Below are positions 4,684 through 9,248 of a stretch of DNA of 34,255 bases, in pieces (position 1 is the stretch's first letter; each line of letters starts with the position of its first letter). The stretch covers positions 1 to 34,255 of IMG/VR virus record IMGVR_UViG_638341087_000014; one strand, written 5' to 3'. The position numbers were made by a program, and so were the translations under genes. The notes under the pieces were generated by a model. It made no database searches and was not told the origin of the DNA. It worked only from the letters and a program-made list of their open reading frames with translations. This DNA is from a virus. Lineage: Duplodnaviria; Heunggongvirae; Uroviricota; Caudoviricetes.

Positions 4684-4760
4684 GGCCCTTTAGCTCAGTT
4701 GGTCAGAGCGAGCGACTCATAATCGCCAGGTCGCTGGTTCAAGTCCAGCAAGGGCCACCA
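4684..4760 (+). tRNA. tRNA with CAU anticodon, ileX-like (tRNA-Ile2, lysidine type), often auto-annotated as tRNA-Met
   Basis: 77 nt cloverleaf folded by hand: acceptor GGCCCTT/AAGGGCC, T-arm GCTGG-TTCAAGT-CCAGC, anticodon loop CTCATAA, 3' CCA encoded. Confidence 0.8.
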
Positions 4761-4761
4761 G

Positions 4762-4838
4762 CCGCCACTAGCTCATCCGGATAGAGCATCAACCTTCTAA
4801 GTTGATGGTGCGAGGTTCGAGTCCTCGGTGGCGGGCCA
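4762..4838 (+). tRNA. tRNA-Arg (anticodon UCU)
   Basis: 77 nt: acceptor CCGCCAC/GTGGCGG, anticodon stem-loop TCAAC-CTTCTAA-GTTGA, T-arm CGAGG-TTCGAGT-CCTCG, CCA encoded. 5' end could shift by 1 nt. Confidence 0.8.
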
Positions 4839-4840
4839 GT

Positions 4841-4916
<76 letters not shown>

Positions 4917-4919
4917 TAT

Positions 4920-4994
<75 letters not shown>

Positions 4995-5646: not shown

Positions 5647-6072
5647 ATGTTTGGTATTTTCAAAAAGAAAACCCGCAAGGCCATTACCGAAGTGAAGAAG
5701 ATGGAGAACCGCGACGCAGTGGAGGCGACCGTCTGGGGCGCGTATTCCATTGCATATGCTGACGGCACCTGCGATGCGAAAGAAATCGCTGTGCTGGAGA
5801 AAACCATTGCAGCACTTCCTGCTTTTGCGCCGTTCTCGGGTGAGATTGCACAAATGAGTGCAAATATCCGCGCCCGTTATGAAGCGTCGCCGCGCTCTGC
5901 CAATGCTGAAGCCCTTCGCCAGCTGGCTGATGTTGCCGGTACTGATGATGCAGTTAATGTACTGTGCCTGTGTCTGGATATCGCAGACCAGGATGGCATT
6001 GGTCCGGATGAAGAAGCGCAGCTCAAGAAAATTGCTCAGGCGCTGCAGTTACCGCTGGAGCAGTACCTGTGA
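5647..6072 (+). CDS. TerB-like (tellurite-resistance TerB family) domain protein, 141 aa
   Basis: Pattern resembling TerB (two helical repeats with conserved AxxDG...EE/DEE, e.g. SIAYADGTCDAKEIAVLEK and LDIADQDGIGPDEEAQLKKIAQAL); AAAAGGAAAAG before ATG 5647. Family call from remembered pattern, not a search. Confidence 0.6.
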   Translation: MFGIFKKKTRKAITEVKKMENRDAVEATVWGAYSIAYADGTCDAKEIAVLEKTIAALPAFAPFSGEIAQMSANIRARYEASPRSANAEALRQLADVAGTDDAVNVLCLCLDIADQDGIGPDEEAQLKKIAQALQLPLEQYL

Positions 6073-6221
6073 AAAGTGCGCGCCTTGTGCTGGCTGCCAT
6101 CCTGCTGTTTCTGGTAGTGGCGGTGGATTTCACCGGACGGCTGATGTCGGTGCTGGCAGATGGTGTGCTGGTGGCGATGGCGCTGGTCGTGCTCCGGCCT
6201 TTACTGCGTAAATCTGAATAA
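6069..6221 (+). CDS. Candidate small membrane protein (50 aa, two hydrophobic segments), start overlapping the TerB-like stop (GTGA)
   Basis: Translation from GTG 6069: MKSARLVLAAILLFLVVAVDFTGRLMSVLADGVLVAMALVVLRPLLRKSE; below the 60-aa cut-off of the ORF track; ends just before a hairpin and terminator. Confidence 0.3.
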   Translation: MKSARLVLAAILLFLVVAVDFTGRLMSVLADGVLVAMALVVLRPLLRKSE

Positions 6222-6703: not shown

Positions 6704-6968
6704 CCTTCCCGGATTACTGAATGTGGCGTTATGCACGGTTATCGTGCTGACGCTCTTTTTTTATCGTCGCCGTGATTCCAGGCATAAACCGCTGATGTCA
6801 TGGCTGGCCTGGTTGCTGATGCTGCTGTATGCCTTTGCGCCCCTCAGCTATCTGTGTGGTCGCCCGTTAGCAACGGGCTGGCTGGAAGTGTTTTTTAATC
6901 TGTTGTTCTGCGTGCTGGTAATACGCGCACGCGGGAACGTCGCAAGAATCTTTCCATTGTTGAGGTGA
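6693..6968 (+). CDS. Putative second holin / holin-associated membrane protein
   Basis: 91 aa, three hydrophobic segments, GGAGGAGG before ATG 6693, overlaps the previous gene by 11 nt, directly upstream of the endolysin. Confidence 0.45.
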   Translation: MLSNLPGLLNVALCTVIVLTLFFYRRRDSRHKPLMSWLAWLLMLLYAFAPLSYLCGRPLATGWLEVFFNLLFCVLVIRARGNVARIFPLLR

Positions 6969-6970
6969 AT

Positions 6971-7348
6971 ATGTCGGGTAAATTCAGATTTAGTCGTCGC
7001 AGTGAAAAAAATCTGGAGGGCGTTAAACCACAGCTGGTTGCTGTCGTTCGCCGTGCGCTGGAGCTGACGGAGGTTGATTTCGGTATTACGGAAGGGCTGC
7101 GCACGAAAGAACGCCAGAAACAGCTGGTCGCGGAAGGGAAAAGCCAGACCATGAACAGCCGCCACCTGACCGGTGATGCGGTGGATGTTGTTGCCTGGGT
7201 TGGCAGCCAGGTGTCATGGGACTGGCCTCTGTACGAGAAAATCGCGCAGGCATTTAAGCAGGCTGCCGCAGAGCTGGGAACCGCCATCGAATGGGGCGGG
7301 GACTGGAAAACACTGAAAGACGGGCCTCACTTTCAGTTGAAACGCTGA
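6971..7348 (+). CDS. Endolysin, peptidase M15 family (L-alanyl-D-glutamate peptidase type)
   Basis: 125 aa; zinc-peptidase motifs SRHLTGDAVD and GGDWKTLKDGPHFQ; GAGGTG before ATG 6971. Confidence 0.8.
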   Translation: MSGKFRFSRRSEKNLEGVKPQLVAVVRRALELTEVDFGITEGLRTKERQKQLVAEGKSQTMNSRHLTGDAVDVVAWVGSQVSWDWPLYEKIAQAFKQAAAELGTAIEWGGDWKTLKDGPHFQLKR

Positions 7349-7362
7349 TAACCAGGTGGGTT

Positions 7363-7545
7363 ATGAGCAGAAAACACTGGACACACAGAATGCCGCGAAC
7401 GGCGGCGAAATGGGCGCTGGTAGCGATACTGGTGCCTTTTTTATTGGTGGGATGCGTCAGCCTGGATAAGGCGCGCCTGTTTTTTGACGCTGCTTCTCAG
7501 GCCTGCCAGTTGATTGATGGCATCCGGCAGTGTACGCAGAACTGA
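7363..7545 (+). CDS. Small lipoprotein, possible o-spanin (Rz1-like)
   Basis: 60 aa; signal peptide with lipobox LLVGC, short mature part; sits at the end of the lysis cassette. No partner i-spanin identified. Confidence 0.4.
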   Translation: MSRKHWTHRMPRTAAKWALVAILVPFLLVGCVSLDKARLFFDAASQACQLIDGIRQCTQN

Positions 7546-7716
7546 TCGCAGGTAAGAGCAGAATATTTTGCTGAAAAATGAGGGGTGCGTCAGCGCACGG
7601 AAAGCATGAAATTCTGCGTTTGTGGTTATTCAATAAAATAAATTCTTTCTATCGCCGCGAATACTCAAATGTTGATCAGTGCCCGGTGCGGCGACAGGCT
7701 TTGATATCAGGAGACG

Positions 7717-8115
7717 ATGATGGAAAAAACAGAAAACAAACCGATTGCAATTGGTGCTGATGCTGCTCCGTTTAAGTTTGAGTTGTCTCAACTGGTGGAG
7801 ATGCGCATCAGTGATGAATGGGGTGAGGTTAAAGCCCGCGCGCAGTATGCGGATGGCGAAAACCAGTACTTGATCCACTACAAGGCAGCTGACGGTCGCG
7901 CCACGACGGAGTGGTTTGGTGAGTCAATGCTGGAAGCAACAGAAGATGATCGTCATCCAGGTTGTCCGGTATTTGCCGGTATGAAATTACCGGAAGGCGC
8001 AGTGGTTGAGCTGCAGCCGGGTGAGATGTTCGTAATGACAGACATCATTGATGGTAAACCGCAGTATTCGCGTATTGAAATGAATGATAAGAGTGCTCGC
8101 CTGATTCGTGAGTAA
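7717..8115 (+). CDS. Hypothetical protein (132 aa), family not recognised
   Basis: Clean ORF with CAGGAGACG before tandem ATGs (7717/7720); no TM or signal peptide; between the lysis cassette and cos. Confidence 0.6.
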   Translation: MMEKTENKPIAIGADAAPFKFELSQLVEMRISDEWGEVKARAQYADGENQYLIHYKAADGRATTEWFGESMLEATEDDRHPGCPVFAGMKLPEGAVVELQPGEMFVMTDIIDGKPQYSRIEMNDKSARLIRE

Positions 8116-8122
8116 CAGGCAT

Positions 8123-8160
8123 TACAGCAGTCCTTCACTCTAAGGGGCTGCTGTAATGTG
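8123..8160 (+). other. Stable hairpin (11-bp perfect stem) just after the 7717-8115 stop
   Basis: CATTACAGCAG ... CTGCTGTAATG inverted repeat; no U-tract on either strand. Confidence 0.4.
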
Positions 8161-8482
8161 AGAAATAAAAAACCGGTCACAGGGAGCAGCTACACAGAAC
8201 CGGCCGGCGAAGACCGCCAATACCACTCATGCATTGATGCAACATACTAATGACAATAGCCGCTATTGATGTAAATGCAACGTTATGCATCAACGAAAAT
8301 AAAAAACCGGCAGGGGAAATCCATTGAAGATTTGCCGGTGGCAAAAGAGGGCCATGTTTTTAACCTTAGTCGCAGAGTTACGGAGTGCAACTACGAATGC
8401 TGCCGGTATATGGCTGAATGGCGTTTCAATGATGTACGTCATCTTATCTGTAAATGTTAATGATAAACGCTCCCATTTGTGC

Positions 8483-8676
8483 GGGTCCTTTCCGGGAGTT
8501 GAAACACCGGGGGTCATAGCACGCGCAAAAACGCGCTATTTATGAAAATTTTTCAGGAAAAAGCATGTCGGTACTTCTCGCGCATAACTATTTGTTTTTT
8601 CTGACATCACATCAGTAAAAGGTCCGACATGAAAACACCCGAAAAAGGACATTTTAAGCGTTTTCATGTCGGACCC
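8483..8676 (+). promoter_or_regulatory. cos site region (cosQ-like, predicted cosN near 8500-8530, cosB-like terminase-binding repeats)
   Basis: GGGTCCTTTCCGG and CGCTATTTATGAAAATTTT are as I recall them flanking lambda cosN; three CATGTCGG-type elements (8564-8574, 8621-8636 inverted, 8660-8675) with a perfect 16-bp inverted repeat, directly upstream of the Nu1-like gene. Confidence 0.6.
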
Positions 8677-8699
8677 TGTATTTGATAGAGAAATGTATT

Positions 8700-9248
8700 G
8701 TGAAAGTTAACAAAAAGAAACTTGCCGAAATTTTCAACGTGGATCCGCGAACGATTGAACGCTGGCAGTCTCAGGGGCTATCTTGCGTCTCCGGAGGTAG
8801 CAAGGGTGTTGAATCTGTGTTTGATACCGCGATGGCAATTCAGTGGTACGCGCAGAGAGAAACTGATATCGAAAACGAAAAGCTCCGCAAAGAACTGGAA
8901 GATTTGCGTGCGGCTGCAGAATCAGATTTACAACCCGGCACCATTGACTATGAACGCTACCGGCTCACCAAAGCACAGGCTGACGCACAGGAGCTGAAAA
9001 ATGCCCGTGAAGAAGGGCTGGTGCTGGAAACGGAATTGTTTACCTTCATTCTGCAACGTGTGGCACAGGAGATTTCGGGGATACTTGTACGTGTGCCGCT
9101 GACATTACAGCGTAAATATCCGGATATTTCACCGTCACACCTTGATGTGGTGAAAACTGAAATCGCGAAAGCCTCCAATGTTGCAGCTAAAGCCGGTGAA
9201 AACGTGGGCAGGTGGATTGATGATTTCAGACGCACAGAAGGCAGCTAA
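8700..9248 (+). CDS. Terminase small subunit (lambda Nu1-like)
   Basis: Strong similarity to lambda Nu1 as I recall it ([59 protein letters not shown]). GTG 8700 chosen by alignment to the lambda N-terminus; track ORF starts at TTG 8682. Confidence 0.9.

What the first reader, a model, noticed from the sequence alone, without database searches (positions are those of the whole stretch)
7546..8480. Unassigned gene and structured non-coding DNA in the slot between lysis genes and cos
The 132-aa ORF at 7717-8115 has a good ribosome-binding site and no recognisable family; it is followed by an 11-bp perfect hairpin (8123-8160) and about 320 bp of non-coding DNA with repeated AATAAAAAACCGG elements (8164-8176, 8298-8310) and a second hairpin (8308-8340) that would read as a terminator on the minus strand. 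This slot carries accessory genes in many lambdoid phages, so the ORF is a candidate cargo gene and the non-coding part may encode a small RNA.
Basis: seen in the sequence. Interest (0 to 1): 0.4.

Follow-up and report, generated by a model that had tools for sequence, protein, structure and literature searches.

The report
Phage accessory gene and cos-side hairpins
A real but optional small phage gene, whose protein looks like the bacterial protease helper HspQ, lies next to a conserved stretch of non-coding hairpins just before the phage DNA-packaging site; no small-RNA gene could be shown, so the finding is mostly ordinary.

Summary

The non-coding DNA is a conserved module fixed about 145 bp left of cosQ. 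It holds a 17-pair stem-loop (8119-8159, more stable as plus-strand RNA) and two minus-strand terminator-like hairpins (8171-8205, 8306-8339). An optional 121-bp unit is bounded by the 13-bp repeats. The stretch has no coding signal, no Rfam match and no promoter-like site in three variants. Lambda lacks the module. A small RNA is possible but unsupported.

The parts
7363..7545 (+). 60-aa lipoprotein gene (lipobox LLVGC; phrog_7528). It is the left neighbour, and the ORF nearly always follows it.
   Evidence: Translation; phrog_7528 at E 4e-34; precedes the ORF in 74 of 77 IMG/VR relatives. It also occurs without the ORF in L004, L008 and L011.
7548..8118 (+). Optional 571-bp cassette: a 170-bp leader plus the ORF.
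   Evidence: In phiSTEC1575-Stx2k (L004) the homologue of 7363-7547 ends 4 nt before the homologue of 8119.
7710..7713 (+). Shine-Dalgarno GGAG, 6 nt before ATG 7720.
   Evidence: Read from the sequence.
7720..8115 (+). Gene for a 131-aa acidic soluble protein (alternative start 7717). Residues ~17-83 form an HspQ/YccV-like SH3-type beta-barrel.
8008..8108 (+). Optional in-frame C-terminal module of about 33 codons, absent from phiP27 L33 and the 98-aa forms. Boundaries are approximate.
   Evidence: BLAST breakpoints; protein alignment; length classes 396/393, 348 and 297 nt. Modelled as three beta-strands with pLDDT 62-72.
8119..8159 (+). Conserved 16-17-pair stem-loop right after the stop codon. 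It marks the left edge of the shared non-coding module.
   Evidence: -26.4 kcal/mol on the plus strand against -19.6 on the minus strand, z -6.2. Found in most relatives whatever gene precedes it. 92.4% of cells paired; 3 pairs with compensatory change.
8164..8176 (+). First copy of the 13-bp direct repeat AATAAAAAACCGG. On the minus strand it is the base of the T2 stem plus its U-run.
8171..8205 (-). T2: weak terminator-like hairpin on the minus strand, followed by UUUUUUAUUU (8170->8161).
   Evidence: Fold at -11.1 kcal/mol, z -0.1. Present only in the 'long form'.
8177..8297 (.). Optional 121-bp unit between the two repeats. 'Short-form' relatives have one repeat copy and lack this unit.
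   Evidence: Alignments. 45 loci with the unit and 54 without among those where the stem-loop was located. The unit is in 126 of 5426 E. coli genomes; the whole non-coding stretch is in 243.
8298..8310 (+). Second copy of AATAAAAAACCGG.
8306..8339 (-). T1: intrinsic-terminator-like hairpin on the minus strand, followed by UUUUUUAUUUU (8305->8295). It is the most conserved element of the module.
   Evidence: Fold at -13.5 kcal/mol. 122 of 124 loci found with an independent anchor keep it, and the other 2 differ only in the loop. One recurrent substitution keeps pairing only on the minus strand.
8341..8482 (.). Non-coding spacer between T1 and cosQ, of nearly fixed length. The part 8434-8470 is hypervariable and changes together with the cos/terminase type on its right.
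   Evidence: Alignment of 39 distinct variants with 1- and 2-nt indels. No codon periodicity. No conserved RNA structure on either strand.
8483..8489 (+). cosQ-like GGGTCCT. By alignment to lambda, cosN follows at about 8512-8524.
   Evidence: Alignment with the lambda right end and with L012. The identification of cosQ rests on my own knowledge of lambda.

Best explanation
Two separate things lie side by side.

(1) 7720-8115 is a real, optional accessory gene of the phage late operon. It sits in a 571-bp cassette behind a small lipoprotein gene at the end of the lysis cluster. Its product is a small acidic cytoplasmic protein. Its core is an SH3-type beta-barrel remotely related to HspQ/YccV, a domain that in bacteria, mitochondria and plastids binds and tunes AAA+ proteases (Lon, ClpS-ClpAP, CLPXP). 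I infer that it is made late in infection and acts by binding a host macromolecule, most likely a protease or its adaptor. It lacks the HspQ tail that makes HspQ a Lon substrate.

(2) 8119-8482 is a conserved non-coding module that travels with cos. It has no gene of its own that I could demonstrate. The plus-strand stem-loop closes whatever cassette lies to its left, and probably protects the 3' side of that message or marks a processing point in the long late transcript. One or two minus-strand terminator hairpins stop leftward transcription coming from the cos side before it reaches the lysis genes or, in relatives, a minus-strand bor/DUF1398 unit. The 13-bp repeats are the shared stem base and U-run of the two terminators. 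Recombination between them explains why relatives with and without the 121-bp unit both exist.

Shown: the gene's reality, the fold, the cassette boundaries, the conservation and the strand bias. Inferred: expression timing, the protein's target, and the role of the hairpins.
For: Gene:
- phrog_1935 at E 2e-70.
- Relatives in Escherichia, Salmonella, Yersinia, Edwardsiella, Enterobacter and Klebsiella, with ten invariant core residues.
- 653 distant clusters.

Fold:
- pLDDT 85.9 overall.
- hhalign against an HspQ alignment gives 89.1%, E 2.3e-6 over 73 columns, including DDRHPGCP aligned to QDEHPEQP.
- HspQ and YccV-like domains act as protease modulators (PMC6719616, PMC7647994, PMC7966870).

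Cassette and late expression:
- Cassette boundaries from L004.
- No promoter-like site in 7000-9000.
- The start overlaps the stop of the preceding lysB-like gene in P2-like phages, and lies 7 nt after the o-spanin gene in Edwardsiella.
- Linked to the lipoprotein gene in 74 of 77 loci, across two endolysin types and three terminase types.

Module:
- Present with at least three cos types and several left-hand neighbours, at nearly fixed distance from cosQ.
- Stem-loop statistics and compensatory changes.
- T1 conservation.
- In L012 the hairpin array lies just upstream, on the minus strand, of a promoter-like site for the DUF1398-bor unit.
- No coding signal.
Against: - No source of minus-strand transcription near cos was identified, so a terminator role has no known transcript to act on.
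- The plus-strand stem-loop has no U-run, so it is not a canonical terminator.
- The strand-bias evidence is mixed: 17 cells pair only as plus-strand RNA and 6 only as minus-strand RNA.
- The strong conservation of the T1 loop sequence is more than a plain terminator needs.
Confidence: 0.55

Rival explanations
1. The module encodes one or two small regulatory RNAs on the minus strand. Unit 1 would run from about 8440 to the T1 terminator at about 8298, and unit 2 from about 8297 to T2 at about 8164. They would be made in the lysogen, and perhaps be Hfq-bound.
For: - Two terminator-like hairpins with long U-runs on the minus strand.
- A U-rich stretch just 5' of T1.
- T1 kept in 122 of 124 loci.
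- A substitution that preserves pairing only on the minus strand.
- A hypervariable part next to a conserved 3' part, a layout also seen in the prophage anti-sRNAs (PMC4104026).
- Prophages of pathogenic E. coli are rich in sRNA genes (PMC4104026, PMC8550237).
Against: - No promoter-like site on the minus strand in three variants.
- No Rfam match even at E <= 10.
- RNAalifold finds only the terminator hairpin, with covariation near zero.
- T2 folds no better than shuffled sequence.
- The known Pas, AgvB and AsxR sRNAs lie elsewhere in lambdoid prophages.
Confidence: 0.2
2. The module is an extension of the packaging site: DNA sequence or DNA hairpins that terminase or a host bending protein needs when packaging ends at cosQ.
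For: - Nearly constant spacing of about 145 bp between T1 and cosQ in all variants.
- The module always lies next to cos.
- A-tracts are present.
- The segment 8434-8470 changes together with the cos/terminase type.
Against: - Lambda has no homologue of the module. Yet L012 and L004 carry cosQ and cosN almost identical to lambda's next to the module. That cos type therefore works without it.
- The same module is used with three unrelated small-terminase types.
- phiP27 carries the ORF and the stem-loop but none of the rest.
Confidence: 0.1
3. The ORF is a lysogenic-conversion 'moron' expressed from the prophage, for example a defence or fitness factor, rather than a late gene.
For: - It is a discrete optional cassette in a slot that holds bor in lambda and in relatives.
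- A 170-bp leader separates it from the gene before it.
- A strong stem-loop follows it.
Against: - No promoter-like site.
- The stem-loop has no U-run.
- It has the same orientation as the late operon.
- In P2-like and Edwardsiella phages it abuts or overlaps the preceding late gene.
- No PADLOC match.
Confidence: 0.15
4. The ORF product serves lysis or packaging directly. It would be either a partner of the neighbouring lipoprotein that affects lysis timing, or a DNA-binding helper of the small terminase.
For: - It follows a lipoprotein or spanin gene in most contexts.
- Distant 59-60-aa relatives lie directly upstream of small-terminase genes. In one Yersinia P2-like phage the gene follows gpM.
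- YccV was first described as a hemimethylated-DNA-binding protein (my own knowledge; mentioned in PMC6719616 only as a name).
Against: - It has no signal peptide or membrane segment, so it cannot be a spanin.
- It is optional: phiSTEC1575-Stx2k and others have the lipoprotein gene and terminase without it.
- Its linkage holds across three terminase types, which argues against a specific terminase partner.
- In lambdoid genomes 'upstream of terminase' and 'after lysis' are the same slot.
Confidence: 0.1

Closest known systems
HspQ / YccV-like domain (Pfam PF08755; PDB 5YCQ)
   Same: - Profile-profile match over the whole domain, at 89% and E 2.3e-6.
- A small acidic cytoplasmic protein.
   Different: - No match to the Pfam model for any of 79 members.
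- It lacks the ~16-residue insertion between the second and third strands.
- It lacks the C-terminal tail (HspQ 86-105) with Lys96, which governs degradation by Lon and Lon activation (PMC6719616).
- It carries an unrelated optional beta-strand C-terminal module.
- It is phage-encoded in a late operon, not a heat-shock gene.
PHROG 1935 / phage phiP27 L33 (NP_543085) / RefSeq WP_000415816
   Same: Direct membership. The HMM matches at E 2e-70 over the whole profile. DNA identity to phiP27 over 7546-8007 is 95.5%. The protein is identical to the RefSeq protein of isolate AJ1.
   Different: All of these are annotated 'hypothetical' or 'unknown function'. phiP27 L33 lacks the 33-codon C-terminal module and is followed by an HNH endonuclease and a different cos.
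Lambda bor region, the 'moron' slot between Rz and cos
   Same: - The same genome position.
- Variable content among relatives.
- Some relatives of this window carry bor and a DUF1398 gene there, next to the same non-coding module.
   Different: - bor is on the minus strand with its own promoter, whereas this ORF is on the late strand without one.
- Lambda has no sequence related to the 8119-8440 module.
Prophage sRNAs of pathogenic E. coli (AgvB/AsxR anti-sRNAs; PasA-D)
   Same: - Intergenic, in lambdoid prophages.
- They end in an intrinsic terminator.
- Conserved 3' part with variable 5' part (PMC4104026; bioRxiv 10.64898/2026.05.13.724894).
   Different: - Those lie downstream of PR' before the holin gene, or between tail genes I and J for PasB.
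- The Rfam models for AgvB and AsxR do not match this window, and the PasB intergenic region has no match in it.
- Expression here is unknown.

Membership tests
PHROG 1935 (phage protein family of unknown function) | Significant full-length match to the family HMM | tested here: met
   E 2e-70, residues 2-117 on profile positions 1-116 of 116.
HspQ / YccV-like domain (PF08755) | Match to the Pfam model above its gathering score | tested here: not met
   No Pfam family for the ORF. None of the 79 aligned relatives hits PF08755 even at E <= 10.
HspQ / YccV-like domain (PF08755) | Fold: five-stranded SH3-type barrel that superposes on HspQ | tested here: met
   [not shown]
HspQ / YccV-like domain (PF08755) | Sequence-profile relatedness over the whole domain | tested here: inconclusive
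   hhalign gives 59.7%, E 8.9e-5 against one HspQ sequence. Against a narrow alignment of 20 HspQ sequences it gives 89.1%, E 2.3e-6. This is suggestive, but below the level usually taken as proof.
HspQ / YccV-like domain (PF08755) | C-terminal tail with the Lys96 region that controls Lon degradation and activation | tested here: not met
   The alignment ends at HspQ residue 85. The phage C-terminus is an unrelated optional module. Role of Lys96: PMC6719616.
HspQ / YccV-like domain (PF08755) | Binding or activation of Lon, inhibition of ClpS, or binding of hemimethylated DNA | not testable with these tools
   Needs biochemistry.
Moron (independent promoter-gene-terminator unit in a late operon) | Present in some and absent from other closely related phages at the same site | tested here: met
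   The cassette 7548-8118 is absent in L004. Other genes occupy the slot in L005-L014.
Moron (independent promoter-gene-terminator unit in a late operon) | Own promoter upstream and intrinsic terminator downstream | tested here: not met
   No sigma-70-like site in 7000-9000. The downstream stem-loop has no U-run on the plus strand. Weak or activator-dependent promoters are not excluded.
Spanin (i-, o- or u-spanin) | N-terminal membrane segment or lipoprotein signal | tested here: not met
   The highest 19-residue hydropathy is 0.78, and there is no lipobox. The neighbouring 60-aa gene has the lipobox.
Trans-acting sRNA gene with intrinsic terminator | Stem-loop followed by a U-run on the transcribed strand | tested here: met
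   T1 (8339->8306 plus UUUUUUAUUUU) and T2 (8205->8171 plus UUUUUUAUUU) on the minus strand.
Trans-acting sRNA gene with intrinsic terminator | Promoter at a suitable distance upstream | tested here: not met
   No promoter-like site in the window or in two other variants. Reading by eye found only poor hexamer pairs.
Trans-acting sRNA gene with intrinsic terminator | Match to a described RNA family | tested here: not met
   Rfam 15 at gathering scores finds only four tRNAs in the window. At E <= 10 it finds only microRNA noise.
Trans-acting sRNA gene with intrinsic terminator | A discrete transcript | not testable with these tools
   No expression data are available here.
Lambda-type cos (cosQ-cosN-cosB) | GGGTCCT about 30 bp left of the nicking site, and the lambda-like CGCTATTTATGAAAATTTT right of it | tested here: met
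   8483-8489 and 8534-8552, from the alignment with lambda and the sequence. The cut positions are inferred, not shown.

The most novel reading that the evidence does not exclude
The ORF family is a phage-made mimic of HspQ that has kept the barrel that contacts AAA+ protease machinery but has lost the tail that makes HspQ a Lon substrate. Made late in infection, it would block or redirect Lon or ClpS-ClpAP. That could stabilise phage proteins, or prevent protease-triggered abortive-infection systems from firing. Independently of this, the cos-side module could encode a pair of minus-strand sRNAs that are made only when cos is joined, that is, in the prophage or the circular genome.
Probability: 0.15. 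Interest if true: 0.6.

Novelty: new variant of a known kind. Interest (0 to 1): 0.3.

Why it matters
The protein family is large: 653 clusters at 50% identity. It is spread over lambdoid, P2-like and other phages, and it is unannotated everywhere. A testable link to HspQ would give it a first functional lead. Few phage-encoded modulators of host AAA+ proteases are known; to my knowledge T4 PinA is the classic case. The non-coding module matters mainly for annotation. It explains a recurrent unannotated ~350-bp gap next to cos in about 4% of complete E. coli genomes. It also marks recombination joints between the lysis, cargo and packaging modules. Neither point changes current understanding unless experiments confirm the protease link or find a transcript.

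Tried and rejected
- Rfam at gathering scores and at E <= 10 found nothing relevant.
- Sigma-70 promoter scans of the window and of two other variants found nothing in the module.
- Known prophage sRNAs were checked. AgvB and AsxR lie downstream of PR'. PasA, PasC and PasD lie next to the holin gene, and PasB lies between tail genes. The PasB intergenic region has no match in the window.
- A full-text search for the T1 sequence found no paper. A search for ETEC transcriptome papers was not useful.
- Coding reading of 8116-8480: the 61-aa plus-strand ORF, the 50/75-aa minus-strand ORF and the CDSs annotated in L004 and L011 were rejected. The reasons are frame-breaking indels between variants, no codon periodicity, and a minus-strand ORF that would run through its own terminator.
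- A mobile-element reading of the 121-bp unit was rejected because it has no terminal inverted repeats; I judged this by eye on the sequence.
- The first AlphaFold run, with 34 close sequences, gave pLDDT 44.7 and was discarded.
- PDB sequence searches with both alignments found nothing. BFVD returned only uncharacterised proteins. afdb50 was not available.
- The single genome-contig scan was wasted on a 16-base pattern. It returned chance matches in unrelated phyla (loci L143-L262, left out of all later analyses).
With the closer alignment it returned only near relatives.
- A count of substitutions by codon position in the ORF failed, because most relatives differ in length.

Full report
**Setting.** The window is a lambdoid E. 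coli prophage.
- Reading rightwards it holds four tRNA genes (4684-4991), a TerB-like gene, a DUF3927 gene, two holin genes, an M15 endolysin (6965-7348) and a 60-aa lipoprotein gene (7363-7545).
- Next come the finding itself, a lambda-type cos, Nu1 (8682-9248) and the large terminase.
- The nearest complete genome is 99.6% identical over the finding. There the ORF is annotated 'hypothetical protein' and nothing is annotated between it and the small terminase gene.

**Checking the observation.** Every feature is present.
- ORF start: GGAG at 7710-7713 is better spaced for ATG 7720 than for 7717, and RefSeq uses the 131-aa form.
- Stem-loop: the 11-bp perfect arms are 8120-8130 and 8148-8158. 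With G.U pairs the stem grows to 17 pairs (8119-8159), at -26.4 kcal/mol and z -6.2.
- Repeats: AATAAAAAACCGG occurs exactly at the two stated places, against 0.04 expected.
- Minus-strand hairpins: on the minus strand, 8339->8306 folds at -13.5 kcal/mol and is followed by UUUUUUAUUUU. A weaker twin lies at 8205->8171.

**The ORF is a real gene.**
- It matches phrog_1935 over the whole profile (E 2e-70).
- It has 106 close relatives in Escherichia, Salmonella, Yersinia, Edwardsiella, Enterobacter and Klebsiella, with ten invariant residues in the core.
- A profile search of 1.84 billion cluster representatives finds 653 clusters. Many are stand-alone proteins of 57-65 residues that correspond to residues ~18-75 here.
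- Residues ~98-130 are an optional in-frame module. phiP27 L33 and the common 98-aa forms lack it.
- Pfam, NCBIfam, PADLOC and PDB sequence searches are all negative.

**Fold.**
- With 34 close sequences AlphaFold failed (pLDDT 44.7). With 79 diverse sequences it gave pLDDT 85.9 overall and 96-98 in the core.
- hhalign gives E 8.9e-5 against the E. coli HspQ sequence. Against 20 HspQ sequences it gives 89.1% probability, E 2.3e-6 over 73 columns, covering the whole HspQ domain and aligning DDRHPGCP with QDEHPEQP.
- The phage protein lacks HspQ's loop insertion. It also lacks the tail, 86-105, that carries Lys96. According to PMC6719616, Lys96 decides whether Lon degrades HspQ and whether HspQ stimulates Lon.
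- YccV-like domains also modulate CLPXP in mitochondria (PMC7647994) and belong to the plastid Clp adaptor ClpF (PMC7966870).
- I therefore call the protein HspQ-like in fold and probably in ancestry, but not a member of PF08755.

**Context of the ORF.**
- phiSTEC1575-Stx2k has the lipoprotein gene ending 4 nt before the stem-loop. That defines 7548-8118 as a 571-bp optional cassette.
- In 74 of 77 IMG/VR relatives the ORF follows the lipoprotein gene. This holds whichever endolysin (M15 or GH108) and whichever packaging module (Nu1, DUF1441-type, or HNH plus phiP27-type) flank the pair.
- In an Edwardsiella lambdoid prophage it starts 7 nt after the o-spanin gene. In P2-like Enterobacter phages its start overlaps the stop of the lysB-like gene. 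In a Yersinia P2-like phage it follows gpM.
- Two distant 59-60-aa relatives lie directly upstream of small-terminase genes. In lambdoid genomes that is the same slot.
- No promoter-like site precedes the ORF. The protein is acidic (pI 4.7) and has no membrane segment.
- Together these points favour a late-expressed, dispensable accessory protein over a lysogen-expressed cargo gene, a spanin or a terminase partner.

**The non-coding DNA.**
- BLAST finds 8116-8480 in 243 of 5426 complete E. coli genomes, never annotated apart from occasional tiny CDS calls.
- I aligned 14 annotated loci and about 120 IMG/VR loci. They show a fixed order: stem-loop; T2 with a 121-bp unit (optional); T1; about 140 bp of spacer; cosQ.
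- Relatives that lack the unit have exactly one copy of the 13-bp repeat where this window has repeat-unit-repeat. The two states therefore interconvert by recombination within the repeat.
- The left neighbour of the stem-loop varies. It can be this ORF, a KilA-N-like ORF, small ORFs, IS3, or bor plus a DUF1398 gene on the minus strand.
- The right neighbour varies too, with at least three cosN types and three terminase types. The hypervariable stretch 8434-8470 changes together with the right-hand side.
- Variants differ by 1- and 2-nt indels, and variable columns fall 25/21/29 over the three phases, so the stretch is not coding.

**Structure and strand.**
- The stem-loop keeps 92.4% of its cells paired over 14 distinct variants, and three pairs change on both sides. 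In most variants it is 2-10 kcal/mol more stable as plus-strand RNA.
- The bias is not clean: 17 cells pair only on the plus strand and 6 only on the minus strand.
- T1 is kept in 122 of 124 loci found with an anchor outside T1, and the two exceptions differ only in the loop. A recurrent T-to-C change keeps pairing only on the minus strand.
- RNAalifold on either strand recovers only T1, with covariation near zero.
- In L012 the hairpin array lies just before a minus-strand promoter-like site for the DUF1398-bor unit. That fits a role as a barrier to leftward transcription.

**Is it a small RNA?**
- Against: no Rfam match; no promoter-like site in three variants; T2 folds no better than chance; and the known prophage sRNAs map elsewhere.
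- For: two terminators with long U-runs, a U-rich stretch before T1, and strong conservation of the T1 loop.
- I give it 0.2.

**Is it part of cos?**
- Lambda has no related sequence left of the ~40 bp around cosQ. L012 and L004 combine the module with cosQ and cosN almost identical to lambda's. So that cos type does not need the module.
- I give this 0.1.

**Verdict.** The gene is a real optional accessory gene with a new, testable HspQ-like assignment. The non-coding part is a conserved cos-linked hairpin and terminator module at a junction between exchangeable genome modules, with no demonstrated RNA gene. Interest is modest (0.3). The protease-mimic reading and the sRNA reading are the only routes to something more.

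Noticed in passing
window 7363-7545: A 60-aa lipoprotein gene (MSRKHW...LLVGC..., phrog_7528) closes the lysis cluster. No inner-membrane spanin partner is visible nearby, and the mature part has three cysteines and no C-terminal membrane segment. It could be an unusual o-spanin or a bacteriocin-release-like lysis lipoprotein. It co-travels with the ORF in 74 of 77 relatives.
   Followed up: partly
window 8616-8636 and 8660-8680: A 21-nt inverted repeat (90% complementary, 23 nt apart) lies between cosN and the Nu1 start. A partial third copy of CATGTCGG sits near 8565. These are probably the small-terminase binding sites (cosB).
   Followed up: partly
window 7585-7598: A further minus-strand terminator-like hairpin (GTGCGCTGACGCAC followed by CCCTCATTTT) lies at the left end of the ORF cassette, just after the lipoprotein gene.
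   Followed up: no
window 8420-8433 and 8434-8470: The invariant block GGCGTTTCAATGAT separates a moderately variable left part from a hypervariable right part. The right part exists in at least five sequence types and matches the cos/terminase type, so this looks like a recombination joint.
   Followed up: partly
window 4684-4991: Four tandem tRNA genes sit upstream of the lysis cluster. Related prophages carry different tRNA sets at the same place (L002, L003, L008).
   Followed up: no
window 5647-6221: A TerB-like gene (phrog_632) and a DUF3927 gene precede the holins. A distant relative of the ORF (P0225, locus L294) also lies directly after a DUF3927 gene.
   Followed up: no
proteins P0042, P0111, P0177, P0183, P0197: Some family members carry two tandem copies of the barrel. 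Others fuse it to other modules, such as an Lcl_C-like domain or long repeat-containing C-terminal regions.
   Followed up: no
L012 2403-2430 (minus strand): A promoter-like site (TTGAGA, 16-nt spacer, GACAAT) lies between the stem-loop and the DUF1398-bor genes in a relative. It suggests how that alternative cargo is expressed.
   Followed up: no
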